Source: Dudresnaya verticillata (Eukaryota). Taken from it: a stretch of 64,000 nt of DNA. The position numbers and the translations under genes were made by a program. Location of the stretch: assembly GCA_977862235.1 (NCBI GenBank), contig OZ374557.1, forward strand, positions 2,666,001 to 2,730,000, given 5' to 3'. Of this stretch, positions 14,293 through 63,614 are shown one piece after another. Below the pieces are notes generated by a model that saw only the letters and a list, made by a program, of their open reading frames with translations, searched no databases and was not told where the DNA came from. The stretch's first letter is position 1. Each line of letters opens with the position of its first letter.

Positions 14293-15625
14293 TCACCACA
14301 AGTACCTTGCTTGTGGGTTTACAAGAATGTGTGCTCTAGTTAACCCTGATGCCCACACACCTTGAAGGGAAGTGCATCTTGACAATGCCACGTATACCAT
14401 CCCAAACGTTTTCCATCTGTTAATGTCCTTGAAAGAAACAGCTACTCTCGAGAGAGTGAGTCCTTGAGCTCTGTGAATAGTTCTGGCATAAGCAGGGACG
14501 ATAGCGAACTGCCTCCGGGTAGCGACTGCTTCTGTTTTTCTGTTTGGACTTGAGAACAGGCGAGGAGACATTGTGTGAATAGTGTCGTCATCAGTTCTCA
14601 ACTTCAATGCCGAAATAGCACTCGTGTCATGGGCATTTGTTACAATTCCGCATATTGTTGCCCGAAAGCCGGGAATCAACGCACCCGTTTTCATAGTAGT
14701 GAGAACAGTGGCCCGGACTTTTACGTGGGTGACCCTTCGGGCCATTGAATCCGGAACCCTTATGCAGTTGGAGTGAACTCCACCATGCTGGGCAGTGTGA
14801 AAATTGTCCTCAGCTATGATAGAAGGAATGATTGCGATTCTTAGCCAGATATGTTTCGTTTATCGTGTCCACCTCATTATTCTCCAAGTAAAGTCCTGTG
14901 TAGTGTGACGGAGGCGAAGAAATCCCAACACTTGTTCTGTTAATTTTGTTGACGTCCTCATCGCTAAATGTTCCACAACGCACTCTCTCAAGAAGATCGA
15001 AGTACTCCTGATCACCAGCCTGCCAGTGGTTACCCGAAAGAATCGCCACAGCACCCGTTCCAAATCCCCCGAAGCTAAGGAACCACGATCGAGCATGAAA
15101 CACTTGCATATTCTCTTCTGAGGTTCCATGCCTTTGTGGGATGGCTTCGAGTTGGAACGGGTCCCCTGCTAGAATTACTTGACGTCCCCCAAAAGGGAGG
15201 GAAGAATTTCTGGAAGATGAAAGCTCCCTCAGAACCGCATCTATGCTGTCAAGCATTCCTGCGGTCAAGTGTGTTATTTCGTCGATGATGAGGACTTGAG
15301 TTTTTCGAAGTGTAGTAACAGCACCCGCAGTCTTCGCAGTTTCTTCGAGGGGCTTATCCACTTGAAAAGGCCAACTCACTGGGGCAGCAAAGAGGGAGTG
15401 AATGGTTCTCCCGTTCAAACTTTTCACCACCCTGTTCGTGAAAGCGCATACGGCAATGTTCGGGTAGTCCCCAACCGCTTTCGTTGCGTGATCAATAATT
15501 TCGTGCAGTAGAAAGGACTTGCCGCTACCAGCACCGCCGAGGATGGCCAGCGATCGCCCAGTGCGGAAGGACTGCAATGCTCTTCTCTGCACGTTATCGA
15601 GTTGAGTGCCCATTTCTGTGCTCAA
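14293..15625 (-). pseudogene. Stand-alone PIF1-family (SF1B) DNA helicase, disrupted between 14745 and 14810
   Basis: GGAGSGKS Walker A, TIHSLF, LIIDEI, PFGGRQVILAGDPFQL, RRQFAIVPAYARTIHRAQGLTL, YVALSR. Confidence 0.93.
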
Positions 15626-16653
15626 GAAGTGAAGAAGCGTGTAGGCTCTGCTCTATACAGGTGCATTTCCTACCAGTCTGCACGGCTGCAATTGCAGCTG
15701 TCATCGTTCCAGCATACATGTCCAAAATGGCCCCCCCTCAGGGCAGTAGGTCGTCAACAATTCCACCAACAGCGGAACATTCTTCTCCTGAGTAAGCACC
15801 GGGGATTTTGTACCCGGTTTAAGGAGCTTCTTCTTAGAAACGGGAATTTGAGACATGCACGCAAACGTTCTCTTTTCCGAAGCCTTCACTAATTGATATC
15901 GGCTTCGAAGATCCACTTTAAAACCGTTGGGGTGTTGTCCTGGGGCTCTTCCCATGACGGCAATTTCGTGGCCATTTTGGGGACAGTCATTTCCTCGCCT
16001 CTCCTGCACCGTGTGTGTATCCTTTGCAATCGAAAAGGCGTACGTTGGGCAAGTGAATCCGGCCTTCAGAAGGGCCTGCCTTATAAGTTCGAATGTCTGG
16101 TAGGACACGAACATGAACACGCGCCCTCCCGGTACAACGGATTCCCTGCACATTTCTGCAAGCTCGGATATTTCAGAATCACTCATATAGTTGTCGTACT
16201 GTTTCCCTGCACCAGACTGTGATGCGTTCCATACGGTGTGTCGGTAAGAACTATGTCGTATAGGTCACCAACACCCTCGCGAATATTCTTATTGTATACC
16301 TGCCACCGCATCTGATGGCAGGTTATTCTGTACGAATTCAAGATATCAGCTTGCAAATGGTCGTCAGGTCCGTTCTTGTCCCCACGTACAGCCAGCCTCT
16401 CCGATTTTTCCGTGCTCACCGTCACAGCAGATTTTACAGCCGATCCCTGCATATCTTCTGCATCATGATTGTGATGGTCTCCGGTAGAACAGAGGTCTCG
16501 ACTGCAAGGTAACGAATCTACGTTCACAGAAGAAGAGGGAACGTCATCGTGTTCGATCTGTCCGTCAGAGGGATGGTCCTTGTTTCCAGCAGCTGTTACC
16601 TGATCGGAATTGACCCCCCCTGAATCTTGCACTCCAGTCGTAATCTCATTCAC
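15594..16653 (-). pseudogene. Beta-class DNA amino-methyltransferase (N6-adenine/N4-cytosine family), two frameshifts
   Basis: DIVLTDTPYG (DPPY-like motif IV, 16231-16242), then CRESVVPGG, QEKNVPLLVELL and, after a frameshift in the G run near 15735, ILDMYAGTMTAAIAAVQTGRKCTCIE (motif I region). Confidence 0.85.
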
Positions 16654-16699
16654 ACACTCTCGGTCTAGATTCTTCTCTTCATCGCACTCCTTTCTGTTC

Positions 16700-19600
16700 C
16701 TATCTCTAACAGAATGGTACTTGTGAATCTTCAGGGGTGCTTCTTCCGGACAACGGGACAGTGAAGCTTTTCAACGTTTCTGCCAGAATCTGTCGCACGC
16801 TGAAGCGCGAAACCACAGACACGAGACAAGGCGTCTTAGCGAATTGTATCGCCTACTACGCCGAAAAGTCCGAATGGTGAAGGAGGGAAGCTATGCAGGA
16901 GAAAATGCTCTGTTACTGGAATCTTATATATCTGCGACAGTTCACGGGGCTGGAGAAAAGGGTTTTCATTTGGACCGGTTCTGTCATCTATTACCCAAGA
17001 CCAGATATGTAGAGATGAATGAAAACACCGCAAGGGAGATGCGGTTGCTGCAAGTCAGGCATCTCACATTTCAGGTCAACAATTTGACTTGAATGTACGA
17101 ATGAGGCGCTCCGTGAAGGTATTAGCAGCAGTCGTACTACTACCACAAAGAAGAAAGGTAGTAACGATTGGGTAGTCTGTCGTTTCGTTTCTTTGGGAGC
17201 TCAGGGGTTCTTTTCCTCTTCCCAGATATTAAAGGCTCCCGTAAATCCCCTTCCACTGCATTCTCCAACTTTTTTCTAGTATGAGGTATCTGCACCCCCA
17301 GAAATGATCTGTGACGACATCACGGTGACATACGAGCATGCCCGATTCCTTCACGAGGATGTCCAACACATGCATATTCTGGTGCAGGGTGCACAGACCG
17401 AGGCATTGGCGCAACGAAACATTGCCTTTAGCGAATGGCAAAGCGAAAGGCAGGACTTGGACGTCTCGTGTAGATGAGCAGCAAAGGCATTCCATTACTG
17501 TTAGCACTTATCTGCTGACTTGACGCCCCCCACTCCTGCTCAGGTACTGGTTACCACAGCACCAGGCGACCGGCTGTGTCTGCGGCAGTCCACAGTCCAC
17601 AGTATTAAATATGGAAGTCGACCTCCCTCCCCGTGCACAGCCAACATCGACCATGCACCGCAATTCAATCCGAAAAGCATACGAACAAGTGGTACTACTT
17701 CGCATCGATGTGCGCGCCCAGCGCGACATCGTGAAGGACTGTTTAAGGCAGGCTCTCGAGTTCATGGGGGAATTCGAATTCCTCATGCACTGCTACCGCC
17801 ACTTGAGGCGGGAAGCGACGGCGGTTAGGACGGCTGTCGCCAGAGCTGTGCGCTCGGTGTGCGCGGAGCTGTGGAGCTGCACGAATCCCTTAAGCAGCGA
17901 AGAAGAAGAAGAGGAGTTAATCGTGCAGTGAGAATGTCAAATGAGAGCAATGATAAGATAGAGTAGAAATAGGGGTTGAGTAAATTTGCTGAGACAGAAT
18001 GGGAAGTCAACCTTATGTCCTTAATGAACTCCTTTCTCGCTTGTCTTCAGTCGCGATTCTATCCACGAAAGGATGGAAAAACTGCCAATATTTCAATTTC
18101 CGACTGGTAGGGGGCAGGAAGTGCTTAAAGAACATGAAGAATAAGAACAACAAAACAGCGTCTGCGATGGAATTGCAAGCAAAATGAGGCCTGCACATCA
18201 TAGCACCCCGACTGCAACCCGGCGTTGCCATTCTCCAGAACCCCAAAGGAATAAGAACAGCACTTTCCAAAGCTCTCTGTTCAACCTCCCAAGAACATTA
18301 TGGGCTGCGGCGATTATATCATGAGCTTGCGCAACAAATGCGAGAAGATTGGCTCGGCGTCGCTTCGCATCCTCCGACTCCGTGTGTCCCATCGCGAGTC
18401 CAAGCCGTTTACATTTAGTCTCCCCAATCCATGTTGCCTGCACGAAGAATAGGGACGCTGGGACGTAGTGTACTAGCCGTTCGCTGCAATAGTGACGCAC
18501 AATAAAATTTCCAACACAGCTGTGTCTGCGTACCAGTTGACTAGTTGGGTATTCCGCTCGACATGCGAGAAGAGCAGCAAGTTCATACCCGTTTCCTTGT
18601 TACCCTCCTCAAAGATGGGCAGAGGGCAATATTAGAATGTGCCGCGACTGCCAGAAGTGGCGGACAAGGTTCGTTCCGAAATGGGTCCGTGTCATGCGCG
18701 TAGTTAAGCAAGCGAATCTCTGATGTTTCTCGACCAACCTTGTCGGTTTCGGCTGCAGTATCGGAACTGGCGCTAAGCTCAGACACTTGAGTCTGCTGTG
18801 GATATAACGAGGGCATTAGTTGACGCAAGACACCAAAGCCCAAATGAAGGTGAAGTTTGTGGGCTGCTACGATTTACCCCGTAAGATGAACCCAAATGTT
18901 GCAATTATACTTCTCCCTGACTTCGACACAGCAGCACAAAAGGTGCTTCTGCCTCGATTTGAATTGCCGCATAAGCTTACACACATGTTGCGATAGGGTT
19001 GGGTCTTGCCCGGTATCTGCTTTACGCCCTTGCCGACCATTTCCATATGTTGAGCCAACTTTCCCGTTCTCTTCCTTCAGATAACCCATCAACGGCTACC
19101 TCCCTCTCAGACAGTAGACGTATTGCAAACAAGCTGTCACGCATCATGAAAAATATCTCTGTCTGTCGTGGACACAGCTGCGACAGCCGCAGACCTCACA
19201 AACTAACGATTCCTGCCAACAGCTGGAAATAAAATATGATACCTCTGGCTAAGGTACAGCTTTCCCAAGGTATGAAACAAAGCACTGAGATCCAACGCAT
19301 CTTCGAATGGACCAGACTTTCACCCGGGCCGATAGCCAGCCGCTGTTGTAAGTTGAGCCAGTCATCTTCTTGTTAGTGGCAGTTGTCTTGAACAGCGAGA
19401 AAGAATGTGCGTCAGATCTTATAGCGCAGCGCAACAGCTGGTGGATAAAGTTCATACGGGGGAGCCCCGTTGTCTGCCAGGCTGCTGACCGAGAAGTCAC
19501 CATTGTAGCAACGGGAAAGCTGTCGATGTCACAGCCCGCATCTTGACATACAAGTGATGCAGCATCACTATTGGCACTGAACATGCATGCAAAAGGTCGT

Positions 19601-20440
19601 AGTCGACGTAAGACCTCTGCAACGGCTTGGCTGCGCTTCCTCGTTAACTTCTCTCAAGTTACAGTTACGCAGCCCTCTCAAAGTGAGGGCCTTTTTGTTT
19701 GGATTACTGCAAGTCTACTGGCACCTCTTCTTCTGCAGCACACTCTGCTAGCTATGGCACAAGCTCATCAAACACAAGCCCTGCAACCGCGGCATCCGCA
19801 ACTGGTCAGATAAACGCGGCGTAACGCACAAAATCATCCCGTATGACGTAGCCAGCACCAGTGCGGTCCATCATGTTAAACAGCCAAGATGCAGCGTTCT
19901 ACATTGCCAGGGAATCCTACAATTTAAGCGTGGAAATGATGGTGTAGTCTGGGAGGTCGCGCGGGGGGGTTCGCACGAGCGAGCATCGTTGGCAAAGAAG
20001 GTATATGACGCGGACGTGGATTCAGTGGCAGCATAGAAGTCACTCTGCAGCTCTTCTAAGAACTTCCCGTGCAGGTCTGAACAGACCTGGACCATGGAGT
20101 CGCGCCACGCAACAAAATTGTAAACAAATCTCTGCAGTCCATCGCCATCGTCATCTGGCTGTTCGTCGTCTTCTTCTTGTGTTTCGGGGGCCTCATCCGC
20201 TGAGGACGCGCCACCCGGCGGTGGGGACAGGTCTCCCTCGCTGTTCGGCTCATCTGCGACGGTATGCGCAGCGCGAGATTCCGCGGCTGGGGGCGCAGTG
20301 CAGGGCGTGTTGTGGATGCAAGAGTCGCCTGTTCTTACGGGTGCGGGGTGATGGGGGGGGGCGGCAGGGGCGAGGCGTGGCGAACCACATGCGCAGTTTG
20401 ATGTGAGATGCGCGATGACGGTAGAGATGGTGTGGTGCAC
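16700..20440 (-). pseudogene. Degenerate unidentified coding region, partly Cys-rich
   Basis: Chain of short minus ORFs (19871-20440, 19249-19584, 18583-18843, 18013-18500, 17229-17507); no family assigned. Confidence 0.3.
17611..17931 (+). CDS. Small hypothetical helical protein with acidic C-terminus
   Basis: ATG-started 106 aa ORF with amphipathic pattern, ending SSEEEEEELIVQ. Confidence 0.3.
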   Translation: MEVDLPPRAQPTSTMHRNSIRKAYEQVVLLRIDVRAQRDIVKDCLRQALEFMGEFEFLMHCYRHLRREATAVRTAVARAVRSVCAELWSCTNPLSSEEEEEELIVQ

Positions 20441-21807
20441 GCGCGATGGCGGTAGAGAAGGTGCGGGGCACTCGCGATGGAGGTGGAGCTGCTGCGCGAG
20501 GTGAGCCGCTCTGGCCCAGGATCTGGAGTGGAATGATGCGCACGTGCGGGAAGGGGTGGTACTGGTACCAGCACGTGAGTATTTGAGCGCCTCGCATGAC
20601 TGGTTTACCCTCCAGATTTACCCTGGCTGCCAAGCAGTACCAGTCGTGCGGGGCGACACTGCGCTCTTCAACACAGCTCAGGGCGGGCCGGGGATGCGGC
20701 GGGCGGGGCCAAGCGTGCTGAAGCACGAGCGTCGGTGCGCTGCCAGGCGCGCCCGGGAGGGCAGCAGGCGGCAGTGCAATTTCTGGATAAATTTTATTTC
20801 GGAAATTCCGAAAGTTTCGAAACTTTCAGGAAAGTTTCGGGGACATTTACCCGAATATGGGGCATGCTGTAACTCCGCGACCGTGCATGCTATCCCAAAA
20901 AGGATTTAACCATTCTTCTCAGCTCCCTCTCCCCAGTCTAAAGCTATATAGAAATCTTCAGTCCATTAACATTTTTTCAGACTGATTCGGAACACAGATT
21001 CTGAAAACCCGGAAATCTGTGTTGGGTTGCTCCCCATCCTTGATACCTTCTTCGCATAATGAGTTGGATCTCGCAAATACAGTTTCTCATGAGCAGAAGA
21101 ACAGAGGGATCAGGCTTCTTTGCAGATCTCTTAGAAACTCAGGATGTCACTTTTACGTTGCACTACTCTCTTTCCATTTCATCATAGGAACATTCGTGCA
21201 CGGGCAAAGCAAACATCTGTATTCGAAAACCGAGCCCGGCTTTTGTCTGACTGTGATGTGGAATGGTGCTACTTCGGATGCCTTCGTCTTACTTGTGCTT
21301 GTTGTCCCAATTTTAATGCTACTGCTGAGCAATAATTGTTGGAAAGACGCACTAGTTTGTAGTACTATAATTGTAGTGCATGTGCCCAGCTGGAACCAGT
21401 ATGTCGAAAATAAAGATTCCGTTTACCTCAATGTGATATCTTCGCACAATAACTACTTCAAAATACAATCATCGCTATAGGATCGGATACATGAAGACAC
21501 ATGCATACGGCATGCCGTATATGTATATGCGTATACGCATATGCGTCCCACTCCCCACGACACACATCGATGTACGACGTCCTGCATGTATATTGGTAGG
21601 ACGCATGCCTCCCATAAAGAACCGCGCAGTTATACATGCATGCATGCATGGAACGAGCCTTAGATATGAAAACGTCGAGCAAACTGCTTATTGAACAAGC
21701 GCAAATGCTCATACAATTGCATATATTAAGTTATCAGCCGATAAGGGCTAGTCAGGCAAAGCTTTGGTTAACGAAGCTAGCATCGGTAATCAAGGACATT
21801 GGGGCAT

Positions 21808-22593
21808 TTATTTCGAAATGTCGACACCTTGCAATATAGCTACCGCTCTACTTCGCAGAACAGCAATGTTGGCCATCCCAAACATGGGACAGCAACCCCT
21901 CTCAAGGCAATGGGCTACAAACATGACGAAAATCCCACAGGAGTAGGCATCGTCCTGTCTTGGAAGGGACCGATCCTGATGCGTCGGCCGTTCCATGATC
22001 CCTGTCCAGGGCGTAAGGCACCTCCTGTGCCTTGTATTAGAGTCCTCCCCTGCTCTGTAGCTCTTAAAAAGTTGCACTGCATCTCTGGTTTGGTTGTTCA
22101 TTGTGGTTTGCAGTGAGTCGTACACTTGAACACAGCCACGAGAAGAATCAGCGATGAGGAGGGCCCAATGATCGCCACCCAGGTGTAGGGCCATCATCAG
22201 AATCTCGAATTCAGCCATAACAAACTCCCTTCCATAGCTTTCCGATACTTGAATTCCAAACCAGTTACTCGAAAGTTTATACGCGTTGCCATTGCACTTC
22301 TTGGAAGACGTCACCAGTGCGGGTAGTAGGAAATATGTGAAAATGAAAGACGTTTTGCGACCGTCTCGACGCTTACAACTATCAAAATTGCGGCGATTGA
22401 TGGCTCGAACGAATAAGTTCAGGAACTCATCATTGACCATAGTAGTCCTCCTTCGAAACACCTGCATTTCACTATAGCGCAAAATGAATGCCCCGTCTCT
22501 TATGTTCGTCGTCATGGCCGCGAATTTACATTCCGAGGTGGTTAGGCCCGGAACTGCATCCTGCATGGGAAGAACTTCGCACAATCGTTTCAC
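21808..22593 (-). CDS. Ulp1/SENP-type (peptidase C48) cysteine protease domain
   Basis: MVNDEFLNLF, HWALLIAD, VYDSL, PRQDDAYSCGIFV giving the His-Asp-Gln-Cys catalytic set. Confidence 0.92.
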   Translation of the reverse strand: MKRLCEVLPMQDAVPGLTTSECKFAAMTTNIRDGAFILRYSEMQVFRRRTTMVNDEFLNLFVRAINRRNFDSCKRRDGRKTSFIFTYFLLPALVTSSKKCNGNAYKLSSNWFGIQVSESYGREFVMAEFEILMMALHLGGDHWALLIADSSRGCVQVYDSLQTTMNNQTRDAVQLFKSYRAGEDSNTRHRRCLTPWTGIMERPTHQDRSLPRQDDAYSCGIFVMFVAHCLERGCCPMFGMANIAVLRSRAVAILQGVDISK

Positions 22594-22602
22594 GCCGCTC
22601 TG

Positions 22603-24069: not shown

Positions 24070-24649
24070 GAACTTCCAGTGTGCCAGGAACTGCGTCGAC
24101 GTTGGGGCTTTTGAATGATTTCCAAACTACTGTTGCATGCGAGTTGCGTACCCCGTGCGCGTGCGCGGGCGAGATCTAGAGCGTGCTGAGGCCCTGTATG
24201 CTGCGACGCGTGCGCCGTACAGAATTCGTATTCGTATTTATCGTAGCTGTAAATTCATGGAACAGATTGGCCGCACCCTAATAAAACTGTAATGATACTT
24301 CATGCGCGACAGTGGGTTGGGACAATCTCTTGCATAATTTCAGACCGTTGAAACGGCCGTTTGATTAAGACGCATATACCAGAGTGTCTGCAATGGTCCA
24401 AGAAACTGGCTGACGTTACTTGGCCCATGGTCCTCGATGTGATACGAAGTTCCGAACCCCACTGCTCCCAAACACCCGTAGGGTATACAAAGCCCCCCAA
24501 ATAGATCGCCACGCGCGGCTCGACTCTACATTTTCAGTCAAGCGCGTTGTCATCATCTACGTTCAGGAACTTCACTCGTTGTCTTTCACTCTCTGCTCTC
24601 TTCTCATCAACGGCTGCTCCTTCTGTCGCCCTCGAAGAAGAAAAACAAG

Positions 24650-26004
24650 GGAGCTCCGGCTCCAAACTTCAAGACTTTGCGTGCAATCGGCTACGATCAC
24701 CCTCTGAGTGATTTCCCTATCTACGCATATGGGGGTTGGAAATCCATGAGGGACGGCGGCGGCCCTGTGCATCCCGGACGTGAGCTGCAACTGGGACGGG
24801 GTGTGGGGAACGCTGGAGGAGTGGGACAACATGTGCACGTACAACAAGGCCAAGTGGACAATGCACAGTACTCCGCTGAGCCATGGTCCGGAAGCAGAGT
24901 GGTTCACCGCCCTACACTACCCCGGCAGGAAGCTTCCCTGTCCCACGTCATGTTCAGAAGTGCCGAGATGGTAACGGCGATCACCAAGAAGAAAATGTGC
25001 TGCTCTACGCCGTCTCTGCTAACCCCAGCTCAGTGTGAGTTCTATTCTAAGTTCTATACTGGAACCCGGATTAACGACGAGAGGGAAATGGACTACTACG
25101 TTTTCTGGTACGTAGGAGGCAGCGTTGACGCGTGCCCCGTTCCAACTGCGCGCAACATGGATTTATCGAACATGACAGCTGGCTGGGGTGCAATTCGTAC
25201 GCTAACGAGCGAGGCAGACAGTGATGAAGATGGGGAGATGTTCGAGCAAAGAACGGAAGTTATGTCTCTTGCGTCTGCTTTTGAAGAGAGCGAGAGGAAG
25301 TTCAAGATGCATACTGGTGACATCATGATATTACCGAGAAGCGCTTTTTCTGTGGACATGCCTCGCAGATCCGCGTGAAAGGCTCCCGTATGCTGCTTTG
25401 GACGGTCCTGCCTGCTCATAAGAACAAGAAGAAAGACTTCTCGCTGTCTTCGTCTCCAGTTATCGAGGATTTCGAAACCGTTCCGAGTCTAGAGGACTTG
25501 GTTAGCGAGTACGTCGAAGCGAAGGCCTTGCTGAAGAAGGAAAACCGTCTCGCTCGTGAAGCTCGTCGTAAACAAGAGGAGAAGGTTTCTGAAATCAGAT
25601 CTGTGCAGTATATGGAAAGGTTGAGGGCTCTTCCGGATGTCTACAAAGTTTCAGTCCAGCTACGCGCTGCGAACGCGAATCCGTTCGTCTGCAGGGATGA
25701 CTCCAACGAATTCTGGGAAGAAGATATTTCCTTCCTGGACGTACCTCAAAGGGACAGCCGTAGTATATCTGATCAGAAGTCTTCCCAGGGAAATGCTGAG
25801 AAGCGTGAGACGAATGCGTCCCAGCGAGGCAAAAAGGCGCCGAGAACGATTCCAGTTGCCGCCGAAGATCGGAGGAAGTCAGCAGATGTTCGCAACTCGT
25901 CGGATTCCGATTCCGAAGATTCTGCGGCTGACCATAGCAGTGGAGTTGACGCGCAGATACGTATACGCGTTGCGATGTCTTGTATGATATTTTGCCTCGT
26001 ATGA
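24650..26004 (+). pseudogene. Unknown gene B (homologue of B' 59800-61409), frameshifted
   Basis: KTLRAIG~KSLRCLG; SHGPEAEWFTA~GHGSRAMFFTA; YYVFWYVG~YRVFFFLG; KMHTGDIMIL~RMHAGDILII; GSRMLLW~GSCMLTW. Confidence 0.8.
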
Positions 26005-26079: not shown

Positions 26080-26520
26080 TTCGAGCTTAACACGCAGGCG
26101 TCCCACGAAACATTTCAAGTAAGCAAACATAGTGTGGCCGGTGAGTCTTCCAGTTCAAGGGCGTTGGAGCTTGAGACATGCTCCAAGCGAAAATTTGTTG
26201 TACACAGCAAGGTAGTAATTTACAATTTCAAGCTTGGGATATTGGCCGAAGACCACTCCATTGAACATGTTTTGCAGCTTGAGACGCATGCGTCCCAGCT
26301 TAAATTTTTAGCTTGAGATGTATCGTAGATGATTCTTCCGACTGAAAGTGTTCGGAGCTTGAGACGCATGCGCCCAGTGAACATTTGATTTAACCAGCAA
26401 GCTAGCAATTTACATTTTTAAGCTTGCAAGCTACCCATAGGAATTCGCTAAGTCGACTTGAAGATCTTTACATTCAAACGGTTTGGAGCTTGAGACGCAT
26501 GCGTCCCAGTGATCATTTGA
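26080..26520. repeat. Dispersed intergenic repeats GCTTGAGACGCATGCGTCCCAG between convergent genes B and A
   Basis: Perfect palindrome cores at 26283 and 26494; variants near 26090, 26170, 26363. Confidence 0.85.
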
Positions 26521-29143: not shown

Positions 29144-29741
29144 TGTGGCACAACGGCGATTTGCGCCAAGTGGGCGTTCGACGCTGTAATTCGTAACGGG
29201 CCAATGCCCTGTAAGAAGCTGTCATTGCTGGGCTGCGTCATGATGCGACACGTGATTGGCGCCTGGCGCGAAATCATCTGCGCCTCAGACGCGCAATTGG
29301 CGCCTGATCATTGGTGCGGCGCTGGGATATTTCCCGATTATACGCCACCACAGGGGCGTAGATCCTCCTCCCATTTCTCAATGTAATTCGTGTACAGTAC
29401 ACTGTAGTAGATAGTATTAGCACGGGCACAAGCCCTATTTATTGGTCCCCTGAATAGCAGGGCATCCCTGATTGAACCCTACGGGGCGCTTCTCGGTCTT
29501 GACCATTTTCTGGATTCCGGGCGCTTCCCGTCCGCTTTCTGGACGCCAACTACAGGCTCGTCACCGTACGGCAGGTTCCCTGCCGAATACCGGGTCGCGT
29601 CCCCTTTTCCGTTTCCCTTTTCCTGGCCTAGTGCCATTCTACCAAGCCTCTATTACACCCGAGCTACCCGTGAGCACGACGGTTCCGGACAGGTGTACTT
29701 TGTTCTTTTTGCTCTTCCTGGGCTGGACCCGTTGTGCCACA
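29144..29741 (+). repeat. 5' LTR of E3
   Basis: 13 bp terminal inverted repeat TGTGGCACAACGG/CCGTTGTGCCACA; direct copy at 54579. Confidence 0.95.
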
Positions 29742-29742
29742 T

Positions 29743-29759
29743 TGGTCTCCAGACCTAGA
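29743..29759 (+). promoter_or_regulatory. PBS of E3 (TGGTCTCCAGACCTAGA)
   Basis: Directly after the 5' LTR; matches the E1/E2 PBS. Confidence 0.9.
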
Positions 29760-33125: not shown

Positions 33126-33136
33126 ACAGGGGGACC

Positions 33137-40764: not shown

Positions 40765-40766
40765 CT

Positions 40767-50737: not shown

Positions 50738-50754
50738 AACGGGCTTCTTAGCCT

Positions 50755-53197: not shown

Positions 53198-53250
53198 CGT
53201 GTATCGGATAGAAACGAATTACGGATAAATGCGAAACTTCGGGACCACGT

Positions 53251-53267
53251 TCTAGGTCCGGAGACCA
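53251..53267 (-). promoter_or_regulatory. PBS of E2 (TGGTCTCCGGACCTAGA)
   Basis: Adjacent to the LTR end at 53269; matches E1/E3. Confidence 0.9.
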
Positions 53268-53268
53268 G

Positions 53269-54111
53269 TGTGGTCTAACGAAGTCCACGGAGACGCGGGG
53301 AAGTCTCGCACTGTAAGGAATGCCCTCGGAGCCTAACGAATGGCCTCGTAGCCTAACGAAGAAACGAAAAGGGGTGGTAGCGTGGTAGAGCGGAGCGACC
53401 AACACGAAGGACCACGGTGTCAACGTATTCGTGTGCGGAAGGGAGAACTCGAACGATCGATCACCGGGGATGACTCCGGGTGCGCGGGGCTATCGAAAGC
53501 GAGGCTCGATCGTATCCGCGGTCACGAAGAAGAAGACACCGAACTCGAAGAAACAGGCGTTTACCAAAGACTCCGAGGTCCGGGCGCTAGTCGCTTGCCG
53601 AAAACCCTCCGAGGTTGTGCCAGACGACTGGCTCAGTACTACGACGTGAGCACGAATGCGCGTCAACTCGGGAGACGGTTCGTACTCGAATGATTCGTAA
53701 CGGCCTCGGTGCCAACGAACGGTCGCCTCACGTATGGTGGCGGTTGCGAAGTGCGCCAGCGATGCATACGGAGGTGCGCGTGTCTCGTGGGCTCCGGTGC
53801 CGTTACGCGCGGGAAACAACGGGAACGTCACGAAGGTGGCAGCGATTTCGTATCGGGTGCGCACTGTAATGCGAATGCCATCGTGGCGCGCGCGATCACG
53901 AAGTCGGCTCGGGATTCGTCCGGAGGTGTCAGCAATTTCGTATCACGTGCGTGCGGTAATGCGAATGCCATCGTGGCGCGCGCACAGTATGCGCACTGTA
54001 ATACGTTTGCCATCGTGGCGTGCGCATTCACGGAGTCATTTCGAAATTCGTACTTCTCGATTATTTTCACGTAGGCAACGGAGTCGTTTCACGGATAGCG
54101 TCTATACCACA
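53269..54111 (-). repeat. 5' LTR of E2
   Basis: TG...CA ends; abuts PBS; inverted copy at 39921-40764. Confidence 0.93.
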
Positions 54112-54567
54112 ACCAAATGGTCTGCCGTGGAGGAAGATGCGCGCGGTGCGCGAAGATGTTCGCGTTATGCGACCGCCGACTCGTGGTGGCGTCCTTGACT
54201 GTGGGAGAGAACCAAAGATGGAGAGGAAGATGCGCGCGGGGCGTTGGGACGCCGAGATTTCCGGAGAGGGGCACCTGATGCGGAGTGTGGAAAGAAGCCG
54301 CTGCACGCGCTCGAGGAATGCGGAAGACGATGACGCGGTGTGCGCGAGAGTTGAGGCGGATGACGGCGCAAAACACCTTGCGACTACGCGGGTGCGGACC
54401 CTGATATACGCTCACGCTTTTAGAGCGCTGGATCAGAGTGCGGGAAATCTCGTCGACGGCGTCCTAGCCGCAGAAGTTACGATACGCCGGCTTTGGCCCG
54501 AATACTCTGGCGGAACTGCCAGTGCAAATTGGAAACGGTTCAGACCTCGCGGGGATCTCGGTCTTAC

Positions 54568-54578
54568 GAGGGGGGCCG
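54568..54578 (+). promoter_or_regulatory. PPT of E3
   Basis: GAGGGGGGCCG directly before the 3' LTR. Confidence 0.85.
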
Positions 54579-55189
54579 TGTGGCACAACGGCGATTTGCG
54601 CCAAGTGGAGTGGGCGTTCGACGCTGTAAGTCTTAACGGGCCAATGACCTGTAAGACACTGTCATTGCTGGGCTGCGTCATGATGCGACACGTGATTGGC
54701 GCCTGGCGCGAAATCATCTGCGCCTCATACGCGCAATTGGCGCCTGATCATTGGTGTGGCGCTGGGATAATTCCCGATTATACGCCGCCACAGGGGCGTA
54801 GATCCGCCTCCCATTGCTCAATGTAATTCGTGTACAGTGCACTGTAGTAGATAGTATTAGCACGGCCACAAGCCCTATTTATTGGTCCCCTGAATACCAG
54901 GGCACCCCTGATTGAACCCTACGGGGAGTTTCTCGGTCTTGACCATTTTCTGGATTCCGGGCGCTTCCCGTTCGCTTTCTGGACGCCAACAACAGGCTCG
55001 TCACCGTACGGCAGGTTCCCTGCGGAATACCGGGTCGCGTCCCCCTTTTCCGTTTCCGTTTTCCTGGCCTAGTGCCATTCTACCAAGCCTCTACCACACC
55101 CGAGCTACCCGTGAGCACGACTGTGGACGGTTCCGGACAGGTGTCCTTTGTTCTTTTTGCTCTTCCTGGGCTGGACCCGTTGTGCTACA
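54579..55189 (+). repeat. 3' LTR of E3
   Basis: Direct copy of 29144-29741 with substitutions and small indels. Confidence 0.95.
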
Positions 55190-56207
55190 TTGTGACGGGA
55201 CGCGGTGGGGGGAAGGGGTGAAGGGTTGTCCGGTCGGCGAGAAAGGGCCCTGCAACGGGAGAAATATCGTACACAAACGTCGTGCACCGTCTTTGCCGGG
55301 AACATCCCGAACGGTAATAATTACAGTGGACCGAATCGACGCATACGTCTCACATCAAATTTTATTATAGTGGCATCTACGCCTGCGTCCTGAGCATGCT
55401 CTGGGGCTCCCATACGGGCCAGCGCACTGTTGCCCGTCCGTTCACGCCTGCTTCTTGGGCCTGGTCTGGGGCGCCCATACGGGCCAGCGCGCCGTTCCCA
55501 GGTAATTTCATGGAACCGATTGTAATTACCATAATGATTGAGCGTGACCGTGACGCGCTGTTGAACGGACACGTGGGGGCACGTGCCGCGGCTGTTCCAT
55601 CATGGCGGGCTTCTAGTTTGAATGAGTGCGCCGTTGCGCGCGGTGGCCGCACGGCGCGGAAGCAGGGACAGCAGCTATGCGTGGCAATATGGACTGTCAC
55701 CACACTCTCGCGATGTGCGTTCAGTTGGCTGTATTGAGGGAGGTACAGCGTAGACCCCATCTACCCCGAAAAGACCGACTGGAGTGTACCTCTACGATTT
55801 CCTCAATACATTAAACTGCAGCCGCCGAGAATCCTACTGGAGAAGGGGACAAGCGCCGAGTTTTGCAAAACAGCCCCCAGGCCTCCCAGGCGCCCCAGGT
55901 GTCATCCACCAACACGGCACACCGCACATCGCGCCGTGCGCGCGCAATTCCAAAAGTGTTATGCGCGCGCGCGCGCGCGCGTGTCCTGCGCTCCACGTGC
56001 CCTCCAGCTGTACACAACGTGTACAAGTGGTTCCACCACGCGTTATGCGCCGTGCTGGAACTGTCTAGACGTCACGTCACGCCGCCCAGCTAGGCACTGT
56101 AATGCTTGTAATTAGATAATTACGTAATTAATAAATTAGTTATCGAAATTGGCTGGATGCATGCATCCACATCCAAATTGCCTTCAACGGGAAGGTATGC
56201 GTACACC

Positions 56208-56258
56208 ATCGTACACTCAATCGTACACTCAATCGTACACTCAATCGTACACTCAATC
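56208..56258. repeat. 12 bp tandem repeat x4 (ATCGTACACTCA) upstream of gene A'
   Basis: Direct reading. Confidence 0.9.
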
Positions 56259-56455
56259 CTCGATGACAGTCGAGGGCCAATGGTATGTAACGGTAGTAGG
56301 CGAGGGCGGGAAATGATGGGTGAGGCATTATATAACCGACCTGGATGCGTGAATCCACCCCTCCAGTTTCTACCGCACCCCGCAACCACCCTCCCCCCAC
56401 AAACCTTGCATCGACCCCATTGTTCCTCTCCCTCTTCCCTCTCCTTACCATCAAC

Positions 56456-58884
56456 ATGCCGCCGACCCGACGTTCTGGTCGAAAGCGCAAGGCCGCTGCC
56501 AACAACGGAGCAGCTCGGACCGGAAATGCGGCCATTGACGCACAGTACCTTGCTGCCGACCCAGCTTCTTCTGCCGCCGCTACTGCCGGTCCGTCTTCTT
56601 CCGCCGCTACTGCCGACCCGACTTCTTCCGCCGCTGTTGCCGCCCCGGCTTCTGCCGCTACTGCCGCCCCGGCTTCTTCTTCCGCCGCTGCTGCCGTCCC
56701 GGCTTCTTCCGCCGCCCTTGCGGCTAAGGAGGCCGCCCTCAGGGTCATTGCCTCTTCCGCCCTCAATTCTCGGGTCAAAAGGGCGTTGTCGAAGCCCGGG
56801 AGCCGTTCATCCAAGACGGTTCGTGTAGAAGACCCGCCGGAACGCGCACCACGCAACTCACCCGTTATGAGTGCTGCGTACGAACTGATCCGCGACCTTC
56901 GACGCCGCGAGGCGGAGAAGATTCCGGCTCGCCTGATCGAGCACCTCCCTGGCTTTGAGGCCAATAGTCGGCACGTGGATCTCACCCGTGTTTCAGACTA
57001 CAGCTCGGATATTCACGCGGAGGGATATCGCCAGAACGAGCACGTCATCGTGACGGAGGCTATCTACGAAATGGATGGCGTTCGCGTGAGCGTGCCGCAT
57101 TACGTCGAAGAAGGCAATCACCGCGTCTGCGGCACTCTGGATAGCCTTCGTAACTTCGTTTGGGGTGTGGTCGTGAGGAAGAAGGAAATCTACCGTCTTT
57201 ATACAATGATGGGGTTAATGGAGACGGAGGCGTTGGGACCTGATGCGGAGCTGGCCCGGCATTCGAGAGCGGTGAAGGATCGCATCATTAGAGCACTTGG
57301 TCACCTCATGCTTGCGGCGAACCAGAAGGCTGCTTCTTCAATTCCCTTCGCTCCGTTGGAGCAGGTTCACCAGCTTCGTTCGCTAATTCTGGGGGACCCG
57401 CTTGTCCCGCCTGGAAAAGACGAAGCAGGGAGGATGTTTGGAGGCTGGGAGTTTCTACAGTCACGGATGGCAACTGGCACGATGTCTGGGAGTAACGAGT
57501 CCGTTGTGAAGCATTTCATGCTGAACAACAGCTACAACCAGCGTCGTAGGAACCAGATTCTCAAGGGCTGCCTGCATCTCATGGGTACGCTTGTCTCGCA
57601 CATACCGGAGTTCCTCATTGGCCACAACACTGCCCTGGATGCATGCATCTACATAGAACTCAGGAAGCAGATGCCACCGTTTTCAATGTCGCATATCGAC
57701 AATGCGGGCCGGCTTTCCAAGGGTGAAGTGGACAGGGCTGTCTCGAAGGCTTTGAAGGCGGTGGAGGATCGAGGCTTCGTTCCGGAAGCCATATTAAGCA
57801 GAAATGCTATAGAGAAGGTGCTTGGTACACGCTCTGCACTACCTCGTACCATTGCAATGTCGTCCTCAAGCCAAGGGCAAGCTGAGGATTCTGCCGGGGC
57901 TGATGGCAGCGCAAGCCGTGCCCCCAGGCATTCTTCAACCAGCAAGACCGCGAAGGGTATTTCCGGCAAGAACAAGACCACGAAGACCGGTGGTGGTAAA
58001 GGTAATACGGGCAAGAAGGATCAGGCTCCCGGCCGAACGCACAAGGAGTTGGAAATTCTTTCCGGCGTGAACGCCGCTATGGAAAGAGCGGCTGAGGCGC
58101 AAAAGGCTGCAGAGCAGCAAAAGAAGGACACCGAAGCCGAGATTGCGCGCCATCAGAGGGCGGTCTTGGCGGCATGCACGCGCGCGGAAGAAGCCTAGAA
58201 GCGGGCGGAGGCGAAGCGCAAGAGGGAGGAGAAATAAGCTGCTGAAAAGTCCGCCACGCCGAGGCAAAGGCTGCTGAAGAAGTCCGCCGCGCCGAGGAAA
58301 AGGCTGCTGAAGAGGTCCGCCGCGCAGAGAAGAAGGCTGCGGAACAGATCTGTAAGGCCGAGAAGGACGCTTCCGAGAAAGAGACGAGCGATCATGCTGA
58401 AGAGTCCGCTGAAGTCCTCAATCTCCGTCAGCAACTCGAAGCCATGTCTGAAAGGGTGGATAAGTTGGTGCAGATGCAGAAGGAAGTTGAGACGTCTCCA
58501 GATGTGCAAGCCCTGGTGCAGAAGCGTGTCCAAGAGGTGCTCCAAGCGAAGGAGGATGCAGTCAGCGTTGACACGGAGAAGAAGCTTAAATTGGAGCTGA
58601 TGGAAGAGAAGAAGCGCGCTGCGGAAATGGAGGGCAAGCTCCGTGAAGTCGAGTCGAGGCTGGAATCTCTTCAGAGTGAAACCCTTCCGCCGGTACAGGC
58701 GAGGCATACATCGAAAACCAGCCGTGTCCCTATCACCCAGGCATTGCGAGGTTGGGAAAGGAAAAGCTTTGTGAAGCTGGCAAGCAACTTGGCTGAGGTT
58801 ATTGAGAACCAGAACATAGAACTTCCAAGCGCTGTCGTTCAAAAGCTCCTTCGTAGCGTGAACAAGGGTAATCAAGGAAGCTGA
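56456..58884 (+). pseudogene. Unknown gene A' (homologue of A): Ala-rich repeats, intact core, disrupted coiled-coil C-terminus
   Basis: ORF 56345-58198 (ATG 56456) continuing via 36 bp E/K/A repeats to ORF 58444-58884; aligns with A. Confidence 0.82.
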
Positions 58885-59039
58885 GCTGTAGGAACTCGTA
58901 AAGAGTCGGGCGTACTCTTCGACATCTAGGCATGTAGCGCGAAATAAACTTTACGGTTGTGTGAGCCCAGAGATGAATTTGATCAGACGAAGCGGTGTGC
59001 GGTGTGGCCATCCGAACGGTTCGGTGGGCGCGCCCATCG

Positions 59040-59640
59040 CGATAGTGGATGCGTGCTTGCATTATGCTGGATGCATGCATCCACACTTGCACTGGTCCCT
59101 TCGCGATGTGTCCATGTTTGATTATATGAGTGGGTGCATGCATCCACCCACATTTCATGCACATAGTGGATGCGTGCTTGAAGTGTGCTGGATGCATGCA
59201 TCCACACTTGCACTGGTGGGCGCGCGCTGCCCATGTTTGATGATATGAGTGCTTGCAGTGTGCTGGATGCATGCATCCACACTTGCACTGGTGGGCGCGC
59301 CCTTTGCGATGTGCCCACGTTTGATGATATGAGTGCTTGCAGTGTGCTGGATGCATGCATCCACACTTGCACTGGTGGGCGCGCCCTTCGCGATGTGCCC
59401 ATGTTTGATGATATGAGTGGGTGCATGCATCCACCCACATTTCATGCACACACTCTTATGTAGTGGATGCATGCTGACAGCATGCTGGATGCATGCATCC
59501 ATACTTGCATTGGGTGCAAAAATGCAGTGCGGTAGTCCGTATGCGTGCGGACTACCACGGTGCACCGAACCGCAGTGGTGGGCGATATCTCCATGATTGG
59601 GGCTTGATGTCGTGTGTGGATGCATGCATCCACGGACATC
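59040..59640. repeat. Intergenic tandem array (75-121 bp units) built on the palindrome TGGATGCATGCATCCA
   Basis: Perfect GGATGCATGCATCC at 59069, 59190, 59265, 59349, 59487, 59618; variants near 59132 and 59420. Confidence 0.92.
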
Positions 59641-59799: not shown

Positions 59800-61409
59800 C
59801 TAATTAGGGACGTAGTCGTCATCGGAAGACTCATCTGCATTATTAATCAGCGACCGGGCTGGGTCGCTGTTCTCCATACTCAAGCTCTTTTCGGCTTCGC
59901 CAATGTTGTCATCGTCAGGCAATGCATCTGCAGCAGGGATCTTGTCGAGGTTCACGTAATGAAGTCCCAATCCTGATGAGGCAGCCCCTGTCATAGCCAT
60001 GTTTCCGGTCGGGGCACTTGCGGATCCTACACGAGTGCGAGGCTGAATATCAAGCTCATCGACCTGGTCCGACTCGGCGGGCGCCGACGGACAATAATCA
60101 CGTGCAACAGCAATAATGCACCCAGTAGATGTTTTCGCCATTATGAATGCTGCTTGCTCATCTTCCACTTCTCCCTCTGACTGCGATTCCAATTGCTTCT
60201 CTCGCTGGTCTTCTGGAGCACTCCACACCGAAGACGAAGACTCGTTTGCAGTAAGGCTCCCCAAAACGCCTTCTCGCGGATGTCGAAAATGCTGTCGTCC
60301 GAATGAAGCTTCTGGAAGATGTCTTGGGGAGAATAGCACCCTGGGGTGACCCTACACGATTCCAAGTCCTTCGGGTTGACATCGGAGGCATCGTGGTCAT
60401 CCGCACGGAGACAATCCAGCTCTTCCGTTAGCTTCTCCTCCAACTCCGGGTGCTCCACAACAGCTGTCTCGATGCTGAAGATGTTCCTCGGCGCTTCTCT
60501 GAACCGAACTGGTCCTTTAACATTCTTCTTCTGCCTGAAATAGCACCACGTCAACATGCAGGAGCCTGCAATACGAGTGACAATCGGGAGGTCGACAGCG
60601 TAAGAGAATTGGGCGTCTCCACCGATGATAAGGATGTCACCCGCATGCATCCTGTTCTTCCGCGTGGCTTCGGTGTAGAAACTCGACAGCGACAAGAACG
60701 GTGTACTGCCCTTGCCCTTTTCGCGGGGCAGATTAACGATGAAATCACTCGGAGCTACTGTCACCGATGCATACTGACGATTGTACGGCGTTATGCGCAA
60801 GTCACGGGCAGTGCGCTCAGTCTCCGCTCCCAGGAAAAAGAAGACTCTATAGAGGGGCTTCTCGTAGTCGTAGAAGTAGGGGCGCGGGAAGCCATCATCT
60901 GCCGGTGCGAGAAACTGCATCGTGCTAGCTGTGAGTTTCGTCATCTGTAGGACCCGCAGAAACTCCCCAACTGAAGCCACGACGTGGTTCAGAATGCTGT
61001 CACGAGGCAGCACCGACCGCGCTGTGAAGAACATCGCGCGGGAGCCATGTCCGACAGCAGTATCAAACTCATCCACGAATGCCTTCCCTTTCCTTGCCAT
61101 CTCCTTCCAATCGGCCAACCACATACCGTAGGACTTCTTATTCCCCTTCTCGGAGGGGGCAGTCTTCGCGAGGTCGGCCAACCCCGGGTAAAGCATACCC
61201 AGCCAGCGGATGCGTCCATCTTCTTTCATGGCATTGTGCCAAGTGCCACAAGAGTGGTGAGTAAGGAGAGGCAAGAAGTTCAACTTCCGCGTTGGCATTC
61301 CCAGACAACGCAGCGACTTGCCCAGATGCGGCAGTATCTCGGAATCATCCAGAACTGGCATGGTTGGGTGGGAAGGCGTGGTGGTTGGGTGGGAAGGCGT
61401 GGTAGGCAT
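59800..61409 (-). pseudogene. Unknown gene B' (homologue of B), 422 aa core plus frameshifted acidic tail
   Basis: ORFs 60141-61409 and 59800-60339; collinear motif matches to B. Confidence 0.8.
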
Positions 61410-62106
61410 GGAGCGAAGGGGATCGATGAGAGTGATAGAAAAGCCGCAGTCGCCACTGCCCGTCGATATCCAGCTGGAGGAGCAACTGTGGTGTGCAGTT
61501 GGGGTGGGTGGGTGTGGGAAGACCTGTCTCTTTGGGAGTCATGAGACGGCTGAAATGTGCAGAAGACGGATCGAAATAGTGACGGTTCGCATCTACGTGA
61601 TTGGGTGAAAAGAACGGTCGGCAGCAGACACGGGGAAATGAGACGGGATAGGCACCATTTGAGTGGCCGTTCACGATTATGATCAGATGAAGCCCATCAA
61701 TCGGTACTTGGAATTACAGCATTACTGTTACAAAATATCTTGCGAAAGCGGTTACAATATATCGGGATGCCCATGCATTCGGGCCAGGATATCATGGTTA
61801 ACGTGGATGCATGCATCCTGCCTGGCCACCCTATCGATATCGAAATGTGTACACAGACAGATTAGTGTAAAGGGTAATGTTACTTACGGATGCTGGATGC
61901 ATTCATCTACTCTAGCACCGATAGTACCATTTCCGATATCAAAAGATAATTGGGTTCTTTTAAAAGTGTAAAATGCTGCCAGTTGCGCTGGCTAGCACGC
62001 GGTGTGCCATATGCGAAGACGAGTGTATGTAGACGACTGAAGCGGATTAAGAAGACATGGAGTAAGAACACTTCTTACTAAGCAAACGCCGTTAGTGTGT
62101 AAAAGC

Positions 62107-63614
62107 CTAACGTAGACCGCCACAAGAGCCGCGAGGTCTCTTCCGTGGCAAAATCCTGCTGCAGACAGGCTCTTGCCTTGATGCGTGAGTACTGCCACAA
62201 GTGTGCAACACACGTGAAGGAAAGCGTGTTTGCAGTATTTGAAGCCTCTGCATATAAGCCACCGCCGCTGGGATTAGACAGACGTGTTTTCGTGAAAAGC
62301 CTTTCACCCACAACCCTTTCCAAGAAGTGACGCGGGAAAGCGCGACGTAAGCTTGCCCAGGTTTCCAAGAACCGGGGGCTGTGAAATCAATTGCCACATG
62401 ACGAAGAGTCAAGCCTTGTGACCTATGCACAGTCAGTGCGTACGCAGGGACGAAAGCGAATTGGGAACGCGTTGCTACAATGTTTGCCAAACGGTCTCTG
62501 ACATGGAAGTTGTGCGGGGCTACTATGCTTTCGAGACCTGTCTGTGCATGTTTGATTTTGATCCGCTCAATTCGCCCATTGGATTCGCACTCAACGTCGA
62601 GGACCGTAGCGCGATCTCCAGGAAGAAAACTCGCTATTTTGCGAGTGAGGAGCACTTGGCAGCCTTTCGCAACTCGCACCAATTTCTCCGCAGTGCCGTC
62701 TAGACTGCACTTTCCCTGTGACTCTTGTTCGGGTTTTCATAACTGTCTCTCGCAATATTCTCATAGATAGTAGTTCCCAACTCAGAGAGAGCTTTGTCAT
62801 TCTTCTGCTGGACCTGTCGACGATATCGAAAGAGAACAGTGTGTGTCGCCGGTGGATGGATGCAGTCTACTGAAGTTTTGTTTAGTTCACAAATGTCATT
62901 ACCTGTCATTGTGTTCTTTCGGACGCGTTGCAGTAGGTTGAACAACTTCTCGTCACCTTTCTGACGGTGGTTGTGCGAAAGACATGCAACTGCGCCAGTT
63001 CCAAGACCACCGAACGTCATAATCCACGTCCAAAGCACGAAAAATCGTTCCGTTTTCTTCCAAAGTGGCATCCTTATGTCCAATGGGTTCCAACTGAAAT
63101 GGATCCCCCGCCACTATCACCTGTCTCCTTCCAAACGGAAAACAACTCCACCTATCGTCATCTGTAAGTCTTCTCAGCACATAGTCCATCGCCTCGAAAA
63201 TTGCAGCGGTGATCTGAGTTATTTCATCCAATACAAGTACTTTCATGCGACGAAGTTCCATTTCTCGTTCCCCGTGCTGCAAGACGAAAGTAAGAAGCTG
63301 TGGGCCATTGAACGGCCAATTTGATGGAGCGCAGAAGAGCCTGCATATTGTCATTCCCTCCATTACGGAAGCTGCAGCATTTGTCTGTGCACAAGCGCAG
63401 ACAACAGGGTACTGTCCAGTTGTAACGCTTGCCTCTCGCAACATGCAGTGAAGCAGAAACGTCTTTCCACAACCCCCGCCCCCGAGGAGGGCTACAGAGA
63501 GTCCTTTATTGAACACTGAAAAGCAACAAAGTTGAACGGGTCCAAGTTCTCCTTCCCGACATTCGCATTTGCGAGATCATTGTCGTTTCTGTTCCCCGAA
63601 GCTTGGGATGGCAT
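62107..63614 (-). pseudogene. Second stand-alone PIF1-family helicase, frameshifted
   Basis: GGGGCGKT, LVLDEITQI, PFGRRQVIVAGDPFQL, RSQFAFVPAYALTVHRSQGLTL, GQAYVALSR; shares the unusual FGG(L/F)GTGAVA segment with copy 1. Confidence 0.93.

What the first reader, a model, noticed from the sequence alone, without database searches (positions are those of the whole stretch)
14293..63614. Unrecognised multi-gene cassette in two diverged head-to-head copies: genes A and B, PIF1, plus DNA methyltransferase and Ulp1
Seen: removing E3 joins 29143 to 55190 (4/5 TSD, and a C-rich leader for A like that of A'). This gives PIF1(-), MTase(-), unknown(-), Ulp1(-), B(+), A(-), about 1.3 kb spacer, A'(+), B'(-), PIF1'(-). 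A/A', B/B' and PIF1/PIF1' are homologous at protein level but highly diverged. Both copies keep the convergent A/B layout with a palindrome array between the genes. No transposase, HUH Rep, recombinase, polymerase or capsid was recognised. Established: PIF1, Ulp1 and amino-MTases occur as cargo in Helitrons, MULE/KDZ transposons and large DNA viruses, but I know no element with this set. Inference: an undescribed family of large mobile or virus-derived DNA elements.
Basis: partly seen in the sequence, partly recalled or inferred. Interest (0 to 1): 0.88.

Follow-up and report, generated by a model that had tools for sequence, protein, structure and literature searches.

The report
Helicase-carrying giant KDZ transposon relics
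This probably red-seaweed DNA holds broken remains of what are likely two giant cut-and-paste jumping genes of the known KDZ group, each with a gene predicted to fold like bacterial ParB beside its own repeated palindrome and with a PIF1 helicase gene, a helicase pairing I could not find in print.

Summary
The anatomy is real: A/A', B/B' and PIF1/PIF1' are homologous, the retrotransposon E3 splits the locus, and each copy has its own palindrome. The claim of no transposase is wrong. A remnant at 21025-21305(+) matches the last ~95 residues of a transposase family whose core scores on a published KDZ profile. In a metagenome, 4 of 4 close PIF1 relatives sit beside another cassette gene, and one contig carries PIF1, the KDZ gene and B. 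A' folds confidently as a ParB/sulfiredoxin-fold protein; its top hit, 7BNR, is the entry reported for the red-algal transposon accessory gene PAG3, which also has adjacent inverted-repeat arrays. So this is most likely decayed cargo of giant KDZ DNA transposons with algal ParB and methylase accessory genes, not a new class or a virus. The two units are separate families side by side, not a duplication. New points: a stand-alone PIF1 with KDZ, a ParB gene without the 2OG domain, and copy-specific palindromes that suggest co-evolving protein-site pairs. No termini were found; B is unidentified; the four supporting contigs come from one assembly.

The parts
14289..14300 (+). Edge of a neighbouring LTR that cuts the last codons of PIF1; the cassette's left limit is not a natural terminus
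   Evidence: GC step
14296..15613 (-). PIF1 helicase, copy 1, stand-alone gene, one frameshift near 14830
   Evidence: PF05970 E 1e-19; best PDB hits Pif1
15597..16770 (-). Decayed N6/N4-type DNA methylase, two frameshifts, ends overlapping the PIF1 start; no SET domain detected
   Evidence: PF01555 E 0.0028, below cut-off; PHROG methylase hits; middle part no relevant PDB hit
18128..20253 (-). Heavily decayed gene with an EF-hand-like motif near 19870, probably a captured or interrupted host gene
   Evidence: weak, E 0.024; no Pfam support
21025..21305 (+). Remnant of the C-terminal ~95 residues of a KDZ-type transposase, with the last catalytic glutamate motif, one frameshift
   Evidence: tblastn E 5e-11 to 2e-7 with three homologues, reversed-window control 0.32; E 4e-10 with L015
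21505..21650 (.). Cluster of palindromes between the transposase remnant and Ulp1; leftmost M1 site at 21600
21811..22602 (-). Ulp1/SENP (C48) protease domain
   Evidence: PF02902 E 3e-12; homologue beside PIF1 in L018
22606..24126 (-). 507-codon frame upstream of Ulp1 containing a 90-bp tandem array (22885-23559, 7.5 units), each unit with the M1 palindrome or a variant
24482..26001 (+). Gene B, copy 1, frameshifted; family of unknown fold
   Evidence: homologue in L015 E 6e-10
26278..26515 (.). M1 palindrome array between the convergent B and A
26545..29071 (-). Gene A, copy 1: ParB-like N-terminal domain, helical domain, coiled tail; broken by a ~75-codon deletion and frameshift near 28049
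29144..55189 (+). E3: Gypsy LTR retrotransposon with a nested Gypsy; later insertion, not part of the cassette
55190..56455 (.). Spacer between the divergent A and A'; one M1-like site at 55338 and the first M2 site at 56154 bracket the likely boundary of the two units
56456..58881 (+). Gene A', copy 2: ParB/Srx-fold protein, core intact, tail broken by stops and a frameshift
   Evidence: AF2 pLDDT 84; Foldseek 7BNR E 2e-4; VIA top 8 rows ParB/Srx superfamily
59030..59640 (.). M2 palindrome array between the convergent A' and B'
59803..61409 (-). Gene B', copy 2
62110..63576 (-). PIF1', copy 2, two frameshifts; opposite to A'

Best explanation
The region holds two adjacent, decayed gene sets, with a transposase remnant in the left one, that likely belong to two distantly related families of giant KDZ cut-and-paste DNA transposons of a probable red alga, later split by LTR retrotransposons. 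Shown: the genes, their homology, the transposase remnant, the copy-specific palindromes and the same gene neighbours on other contigs. Predicted: A is a ParB/Srx-fold protein. Inferred mechanism of a working element: the KDZ DDE transposase cuts and pastes it (about 0.7 that KDZ is the carrier); A loads on its own family's palindromes like ParB on parS and, with the methylase and the Ulp1 SUMO protease, keeps the element marked and unsilenced, as VANC does for VANDAL (about 0.45); PIF1 most likely helps long repair synthesis across the 15-30 kb gap left by excision, which raises copy number (about 0.25). These copies look dead and could move only with proteins supplied in trans.
For: Remnant matches the exact C-terminus of three homologues and of the L015 gene. 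Two blocks of a published KDZ profile pick out the L015 gene at 26.3 and 17.6 bits, in order, against best nulls of 19.4 and 15.9 in 1.6 million positions; homologues score 26-33 bits on the D block against shuffle maxima of 14-16. 4 of 50 metagenome loci are close PIF1 relatives; all 4 carry another cassette gene (A in 2, B plus transposase in 1, Ulp1 in 1), and none of the other 60 of 64 loci does. A' model and fold hits; GNHR motif in 10 of 16 rows covering it. The only named one of 22 A homologues looked up is from Gracilaria domingensis. M1 sites 17 in unit 1 against 1 in the unit-2 side; M2 13 in unit 2, none elsewhere; a palindrome two symmetric changes from M1 lies upstream of the A homologue in L016, background 1 hit in 349 kb. 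Published ParB/methylase accessory genes with repeat arrays in algal giant transposons, some on Zisupton elements.
Against: No termini, TIRs or 8-bp TSD found, so membership of one element rests on proximity. Pfam KDZ and CxC models do not hit the transposase or its homologues. The window remnant is not among the top four window sites for the KDZ E block, and that block alone is not significant in the three homologues; only 44 of 339 profile positions were scored. L015-L018 come from one assembly, and only 1 of 4 shows the transposase; no contig shows A and the transposase together; the methylase was in 0 of 4. Gene order differs between all copies. No transposase was seen for unit 2. M1 sites stop at 21600, so the methylase-PIF1 block may belong to another piece. 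The PIF1 clade has weak support. The methylase call is sub-threshold. Binding, CTP use and anti-silencing are untested.
Confidence: 0.66

Rival explanations
1. The A/B/methylase/PIF1 set is a cargo module shared among superfamilies; its carrier here is another transposase (Plavaka/EnSpm or Mutator) outside the window, or none, and the KDZ remnant is a separate neighbour.
For: Petroll et al. report accessory genes moving among Plavaka, Mutator, Zisupton and Fanzor elements; gene order varies; unit 2 runs off the window with no transposase; Ectocarpus has giant families with no transposase.
Against: The same transposase family flanks cassette genes in two independent places, the window and L015; no Plavaka or Mutator domain in the frames scanned.
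Confidence: 0.2
2. Helitron-like rolling-circle elements whose HUH Rep is lost or lies outside, with PIF1 as the Hel part.
For: Helitron-like elements carry PIF1 and capture Ulp1 and 2OG domains.
Against: PIF1 starts at its own ATG at the same position in the window and in L015-L018, with no Rep detected upstream; Helraiser is the weakest of 19 PDB hits; a DDE gene is the neighbour instead.
Confidence: 0.07
3. Relic of a giant virus, polinton-like virus or other virus-derived element.
For: PIF1, amino-methylases and Ulp1-like proteases occur in such viruses (recalled); ParB is a prokaryote-type fold.
Against: Viral PIF1 relatives are 25-31% identical; no PHROG hit for A or B; no transposase relative in viral or prokaryotic contigs; no capsid, polymerase or packaging gene seen.
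Confidence: 0.04
4. Ordinary host genes duplicated and decayed in a repeat-rich region.
For: A decayed EF-hand gene lies inside the region.
Against: Many divergent, mostly fragmentary A homologues, shuffled gene order, transposase neighbour, broken frames in every copy seen.
Confidence: 0.03

Closest known systems
KDZ (Kyakuja-Dileera-Zisupton) giant DNA transposons
   Same: DDE core motifs and spacing match the published KDZ profile; large size, accessory genes, nested insertions and pseudogenised transposases are typical.
   Different: No Pfam PF18758 or CxC hit; cargo is ParB-like A, B, methylase, Ulp1 and a stand-alone PIF1 rather than TET/JBP; TIR and TSD not seen. Placement in the Dileera branch is recalled, not tested.
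Plavaka accessory genes PAG1-3 of red algae (Petroll et al., bioRxiv 10.1101/2025.02.11.637652)
   Same: ParB-like gene with the same best structural hit 7BNR, arrays of inverted repeats next to it, a PF01555 methylase, a gene of unknown function, presence on several superfamilies including Zisupton.
   Different: A has no 2OG domain in its confident model; no SET domain detected on the methylase; carrier is KDZ, not Plavaka; the paper's main text never mentions helicase, PIF1 or Ulp1. Orthology to PAG sequences was not tested because they were not available.
ParB-methyltransferase accessory gene of Ectocarpus Sola1-1 (PMC12477816)
   Same: ParB-like domain and N4/N6 methylase in a giant algal transposon, proposed to bind and modify its own element.
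   Different: Fused there, separate genes here; different superfamily; no helicase.
Bacterial ParB/Noc/KorB with parS-type sites; VANC of VANDAL elements
   Same: Fold of the N-terminal domain; palindromic 16-bp sites spread along the element; family-specific sites as with VANC (VANC, details recalled).
   Different: No ParA; C-terminal part of A is only loosely aligned; binding and CTPase activity untested.

Membership tests
KDZ DNA transposons | RNase H-fold DDE core with KDZ motifs (E-x22-D, D/P-x-F-H-x3-H..C, N-x4-E-Q-x-N) | tested here: met
   Published profile blocks score L015 and P0025-27 above nulls on the D block; E block significant only in L015; middle motif matched by eye. The window remnant belongs by homology, not by direct score.
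KDZ DNA transposons | Pfam KDZ domain PF18758 | tested here: inconclusive
   No hit for P0025-27, L015 frames or the remnant; filters drop weak matches.
KDZ DNA transposons | N-terminal CxC zinc-binding domain | tested here: inconclusive
   Cysteine clusters visible in L015 6951-7838; no Pfam CxC hit; region absent from the window.
KDZ DNA transposons | Termini with TIRs and 7-8 bp TSD | tested here: inconclusive
   None found among the non-coding regions compared; left end cut by an LTR, right end may lie outside the window.
Red-algal PAG cassette | ParB-like gene | tested here: met
Red-algal PAG cassette | Tandem inverted-repeat arrays adjacent to the ParB-like gene | tested here: met
Red-algal PAG cassette | 2OG-oxygenase domain fused behind ParB (PAG3) | tested here: not met
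   The confident A' model has strands only in residues 26-112 and is helical after that; the unmodelled tail is low-complexity and coiled.
Red-algal PAG cassette | 2OG-oxygenase domain as separate gene B | tested here: inconclusive
   Profile match to 16 PhyH sequences 0.7% probability, within 20 block shuffles; model pLDDT 34.
Red-algal PAG cassette | N6-methylase with SET domain (PAG2) | tested here: inconclusive
   PF01555 sub-threshold; no SET hit in six frames of 15560-21801; gene decayed.
Red-algal PAG cassette | Sequence orthology to Bostrychia PAG1-3 | not testable with these tools
   Supplements of the preprint are closed; journal version not held.
Plavaka/EnSpm | Plavaka or CACTA transposase | tested here: inconclusive
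   No hit in 89 selected ORFs or in six frames of two gaps; flanks outside the window unseen.
Helitron-like elements | HUH Rep fused upstream of PIF1 | tested here: not met
   PIF1 starts at its own methionine in the window and in L015-L018; upstream lie the methylase, A or Ulp1.
Giant viruses / polinton-like viruses | Capsid, polymerase, packaging ATPase; close viral homologues | tested here: inconclusive
   None detected; decay and window limits prevent exclusion.

The most novel reading that the evidence does not exclude
A red-algal KDZ lineage runs a parS/ParB-like self-recognition system, in which each family's ParB clamp co-evolves with its own palindrome and spreads methylase and SUMO-protease activity along the element, and also carries its own PIF1 to turn cut-and-paste into net copying of 20-30 kb elements.
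Probability: 0.25. Interest if true: 0.78.

Novelty: new variant of a known kind. Interest (0 to 1): 0.5.

Why it matters
Giant DNA transposons drive genome expansion in red algae, and their ParB-like accessory genes are proposed, but not shown, to bind their own elements. Two families side by side, each with a different palindrome and a different ParB-like protein, give a direct cross-specificity test of that idea. A CTP-type sliding clamp working for a eukaryotic transposon would be a real surprise. A stand-alone PIF1 on a KDZ element adds to the question of why some cut-and-paste elements carry helicases. The locus itself is a fossil of a known superfamily.

Tried and rejected
No genome is held for the window, so copy number and termini could not be tested. 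No sequencing run was listed. Word-seeded homologue searches with A' and B' found nothing; the profile search found 23 A homologues, and no such search was left for B. Sequence searches of PDB and Pfam did not detect ParB in A; only folding did. The B' model failed and was not searched. B as a PhyH-type 2OG oxygenase: no signal above controls. ESM Atlas gave no answer for any query. Contig scans with A alignments could not run for lack of a conserved stretch. Transposase scans of viral and prokaryotic contigs found none; PIF1 in prokaryotic genomes gave only weak hits. Pfam KDZ test on L015 through the genome search was not possible. A lipase reading of the 'unknown' gene and a SET reading of L015 3844-4452 were by eye and got no support. 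'Duplicated cassette' rejected on orientation and divergence. Codon-position values for A' and the 507-codon frame were out of frame and were not used. Earlier-findings look-ups by sequence, place and first word set were empty.
Full report
Setting. The window is a nest of Gypsy LTR retrotransposons around two lower-GC segments, 14300-29143 and 55190-64000. No genome is held. The host is probably a florideophyte red alga: the only named one of 22 A homologues looked up (of 23 found) is from Gracilaria domingensis. That is inference from one name.

Observation. The three gene pairs are homologous. PIF1 and Ulp1 pass Pfam cut-offs; the methylase does not. E3 has 94% identical LTRs and flanks agreeing at 4 of 5 bases, so A and A' were divergent neighbours about 1.34 kb apart. 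The units are not mirror copies: PIF1 follows A's direction, PIF1' opposes A'. PIF1 and PIF1' are 44% identical, no closer than either is to copies from another organism, 39-50%. I read them as two families inserted side by side. An LTR edge at 14300 cuts PIF1. Nearly every gene is broken, and A lacks about 75 residues found in its relatives.

Gene A. A profile of A and A' found 23 proteins among 1.84 billion. With them, AlphaFold2 gave a model of the A' core at pLDDT 84. Foldseek's best hit is Myxococcus ParB, 7BNR, E 2e-4, followed by KorB, Noc and sulfiredoxin. The top 8 VIA rows are all of that superfamily, Z 5.5-8.2; these Z values are middling on their own, and the agreement of the rows is the evidence. 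The GNHR motif stands in 10 of 16 rows that cover it; copy 1 has lost the arginine. That it corresponds to the ParB nucleotide-binding motif is recalled. After residue 112 the model is helical, so there is no 2OG domain in the core.

Palindromes. M1 (core GACGCATGCGTC, up to one mismatch) occurs 17 times in 14001-29142, all between 21600 and 28674, once at 55338 upstream of A, and nowhere else. M2 (TGGATGCATGCATCCA, up to two mismatches) occurs 13 times, all in 56154-61894. Sites lie in arrays between A and B, upstream of the A genes and inside coding frames. In L016 a perfect 16-base palindrome, two symmetric changes from the full M1, lies upstream of the A homologue; background was 1 hit in 349 kb; L017 and L018 have none, and L015 has two sites with the same arms. 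This fits family-specific binding sites but does not show binding.

Finding the carrier. All 4 carry another cassette gene: A head-to-head with PIF1 in L016 and L017, Ulp1 head-to-head in L018 (E 4e-6), and B in L015; none of the other 60 of 64 loci held then has a non-PIF1 match; the methylase was in none. All four come from one assembly. L015 also has a long broken gene between PIF1 and B. Its end matches the window at 21028-21302. Three longer homologues match the same spot with their last ~95 residues, E 5e-11 to 2e-7, against 0.32 on the reversed window. Pfam names none of them. I therefore read three parts of the KDZ profile in the supplement of PMC5751038 and scored 44 of its 339 positions without gaps. 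The D block gives 26.3 bits in L015 and 26-33 in the homologues, against 19.4 as best of 1.6 million null positions and 14-16 in shuffles. The E block gives 17.6 in L015 against 15.9, but is not significant in the homologues and does not rank the window remnant among the top four window sites. So the family is KDZ by this test, and the remnant is KDZ by homology to it. The six PIF1 sequences form one clade in two trees of 52 rows (14 short rows dropped, L014 without hit), with weak support: 0.76, and 17.5/76.

Other genes. B has a third member in L015 and a conserved core, but its fold is unknown. It could be PAG1 or a degenerate oxygenase; neither is shown. The 'unknown' gene has a weak EF-hand and lies where the front of the transposase should be, which suggests deletion or interruption.

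Mechanism. Shown: gene content, decay, remnant, site distribution, neighbours. Predicted: fold of A. Inferred: excision and insertion by the KDZ transposase; A binding its own palindromes and bringing methylase and SUMO-protease activity to counter silencing; PIF1 aiding long gap repair after excision (role of Pif1 in break-induced synthesis recalled). The last step is the weakest.

Known systems. Petroll et al. (passages; supplements closed, journal version not held) describe three accessory genes in red-algal Plavaka elements, including a ParB-like gene with best hit 7BNR and adjacent inverted-repeat arrays, and a PF01555 methylase, also found on Mutator, Zisupton and Fanzor elements. PMC12477816 (passages) describes giant KDZ elements up to 30 kb, often with dead transposases, and a ParB-methylase accessory gene. 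PMC12730594 (passages and one supplement part), PMC11343200 and PMC9297572 (passages) give KDZ features; PMC11417382 (passages) gives Helitron cargo; PMC5751038 main text passages; PMC8788227 term search was empty. Iyer et al. 2014 was not seen.

Novelty. Superfamily and the ParB/methylase theme are known. I found no paper linking KDZ or Zisupton to PIF1: one search gave 0 papers, searches gave 4, 8, 2 and 1 listings, none on this by title, and led only to the two algal papers. Repbase and Petroll's Supplemental Table 6 were not seen and may already hold such elements. Unchecked notes of this scan report KDZ with other helicases in sponge and a P-type element with PIF1, so helicase cargo may be a recurring theme. 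Verdict: new variant of a known kind, interest 0.5.

Noticed in passing
window 39921-54111: The Gypsy nested in E3 has its 3' LTR inverted in place: 39921-40766 and 53267-54111 are 96% inverted repeats, the purine tract abuts 40767, and the flanks show no TSD. Local inversion or assembly error.
   Followed up: partly
window 44909-47755: 1421-bp tandem duplication of the integrase region in that Gypsy, 95% identical.
   Followed up: no
window 41658-43439 (+) and 10616-11572 (-): Long ORFs without Pfam match; the first is antisense to pol in the 3' region of the nested Gypsy, likely an accessory gene.
   Followed up: no
window 22885-23559: A 90-bp array built on the M1 palindrome is open in the frame upstream of Ulp1, so binding-site repeats may double as coding repeats.
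   Followed up: partly
window 15597-15652: The methylase end overlaps the PIF1 start in another frame; coupling or a former fusion is possible.
   Followed up: no
window 20780-20850: An 18-bp palindrome unrelated to M1 or M2 with short repeats just upstream of the transposase remnant; possible end of another element.
   Followed up: partly
window 17524-17928 (+): 135-codon helical-looking ORF between the methylase and the EF-hand gene, no match in Pfam or PHROGs.
   Followed up: partly
L015 3844-4452 (-): ORF convergent with PIF1 that looks SET-like by eye; no Pfam or PDB hit. A small inverted-repeat array lies at 3562-3735 between them.
   Followed up: partly
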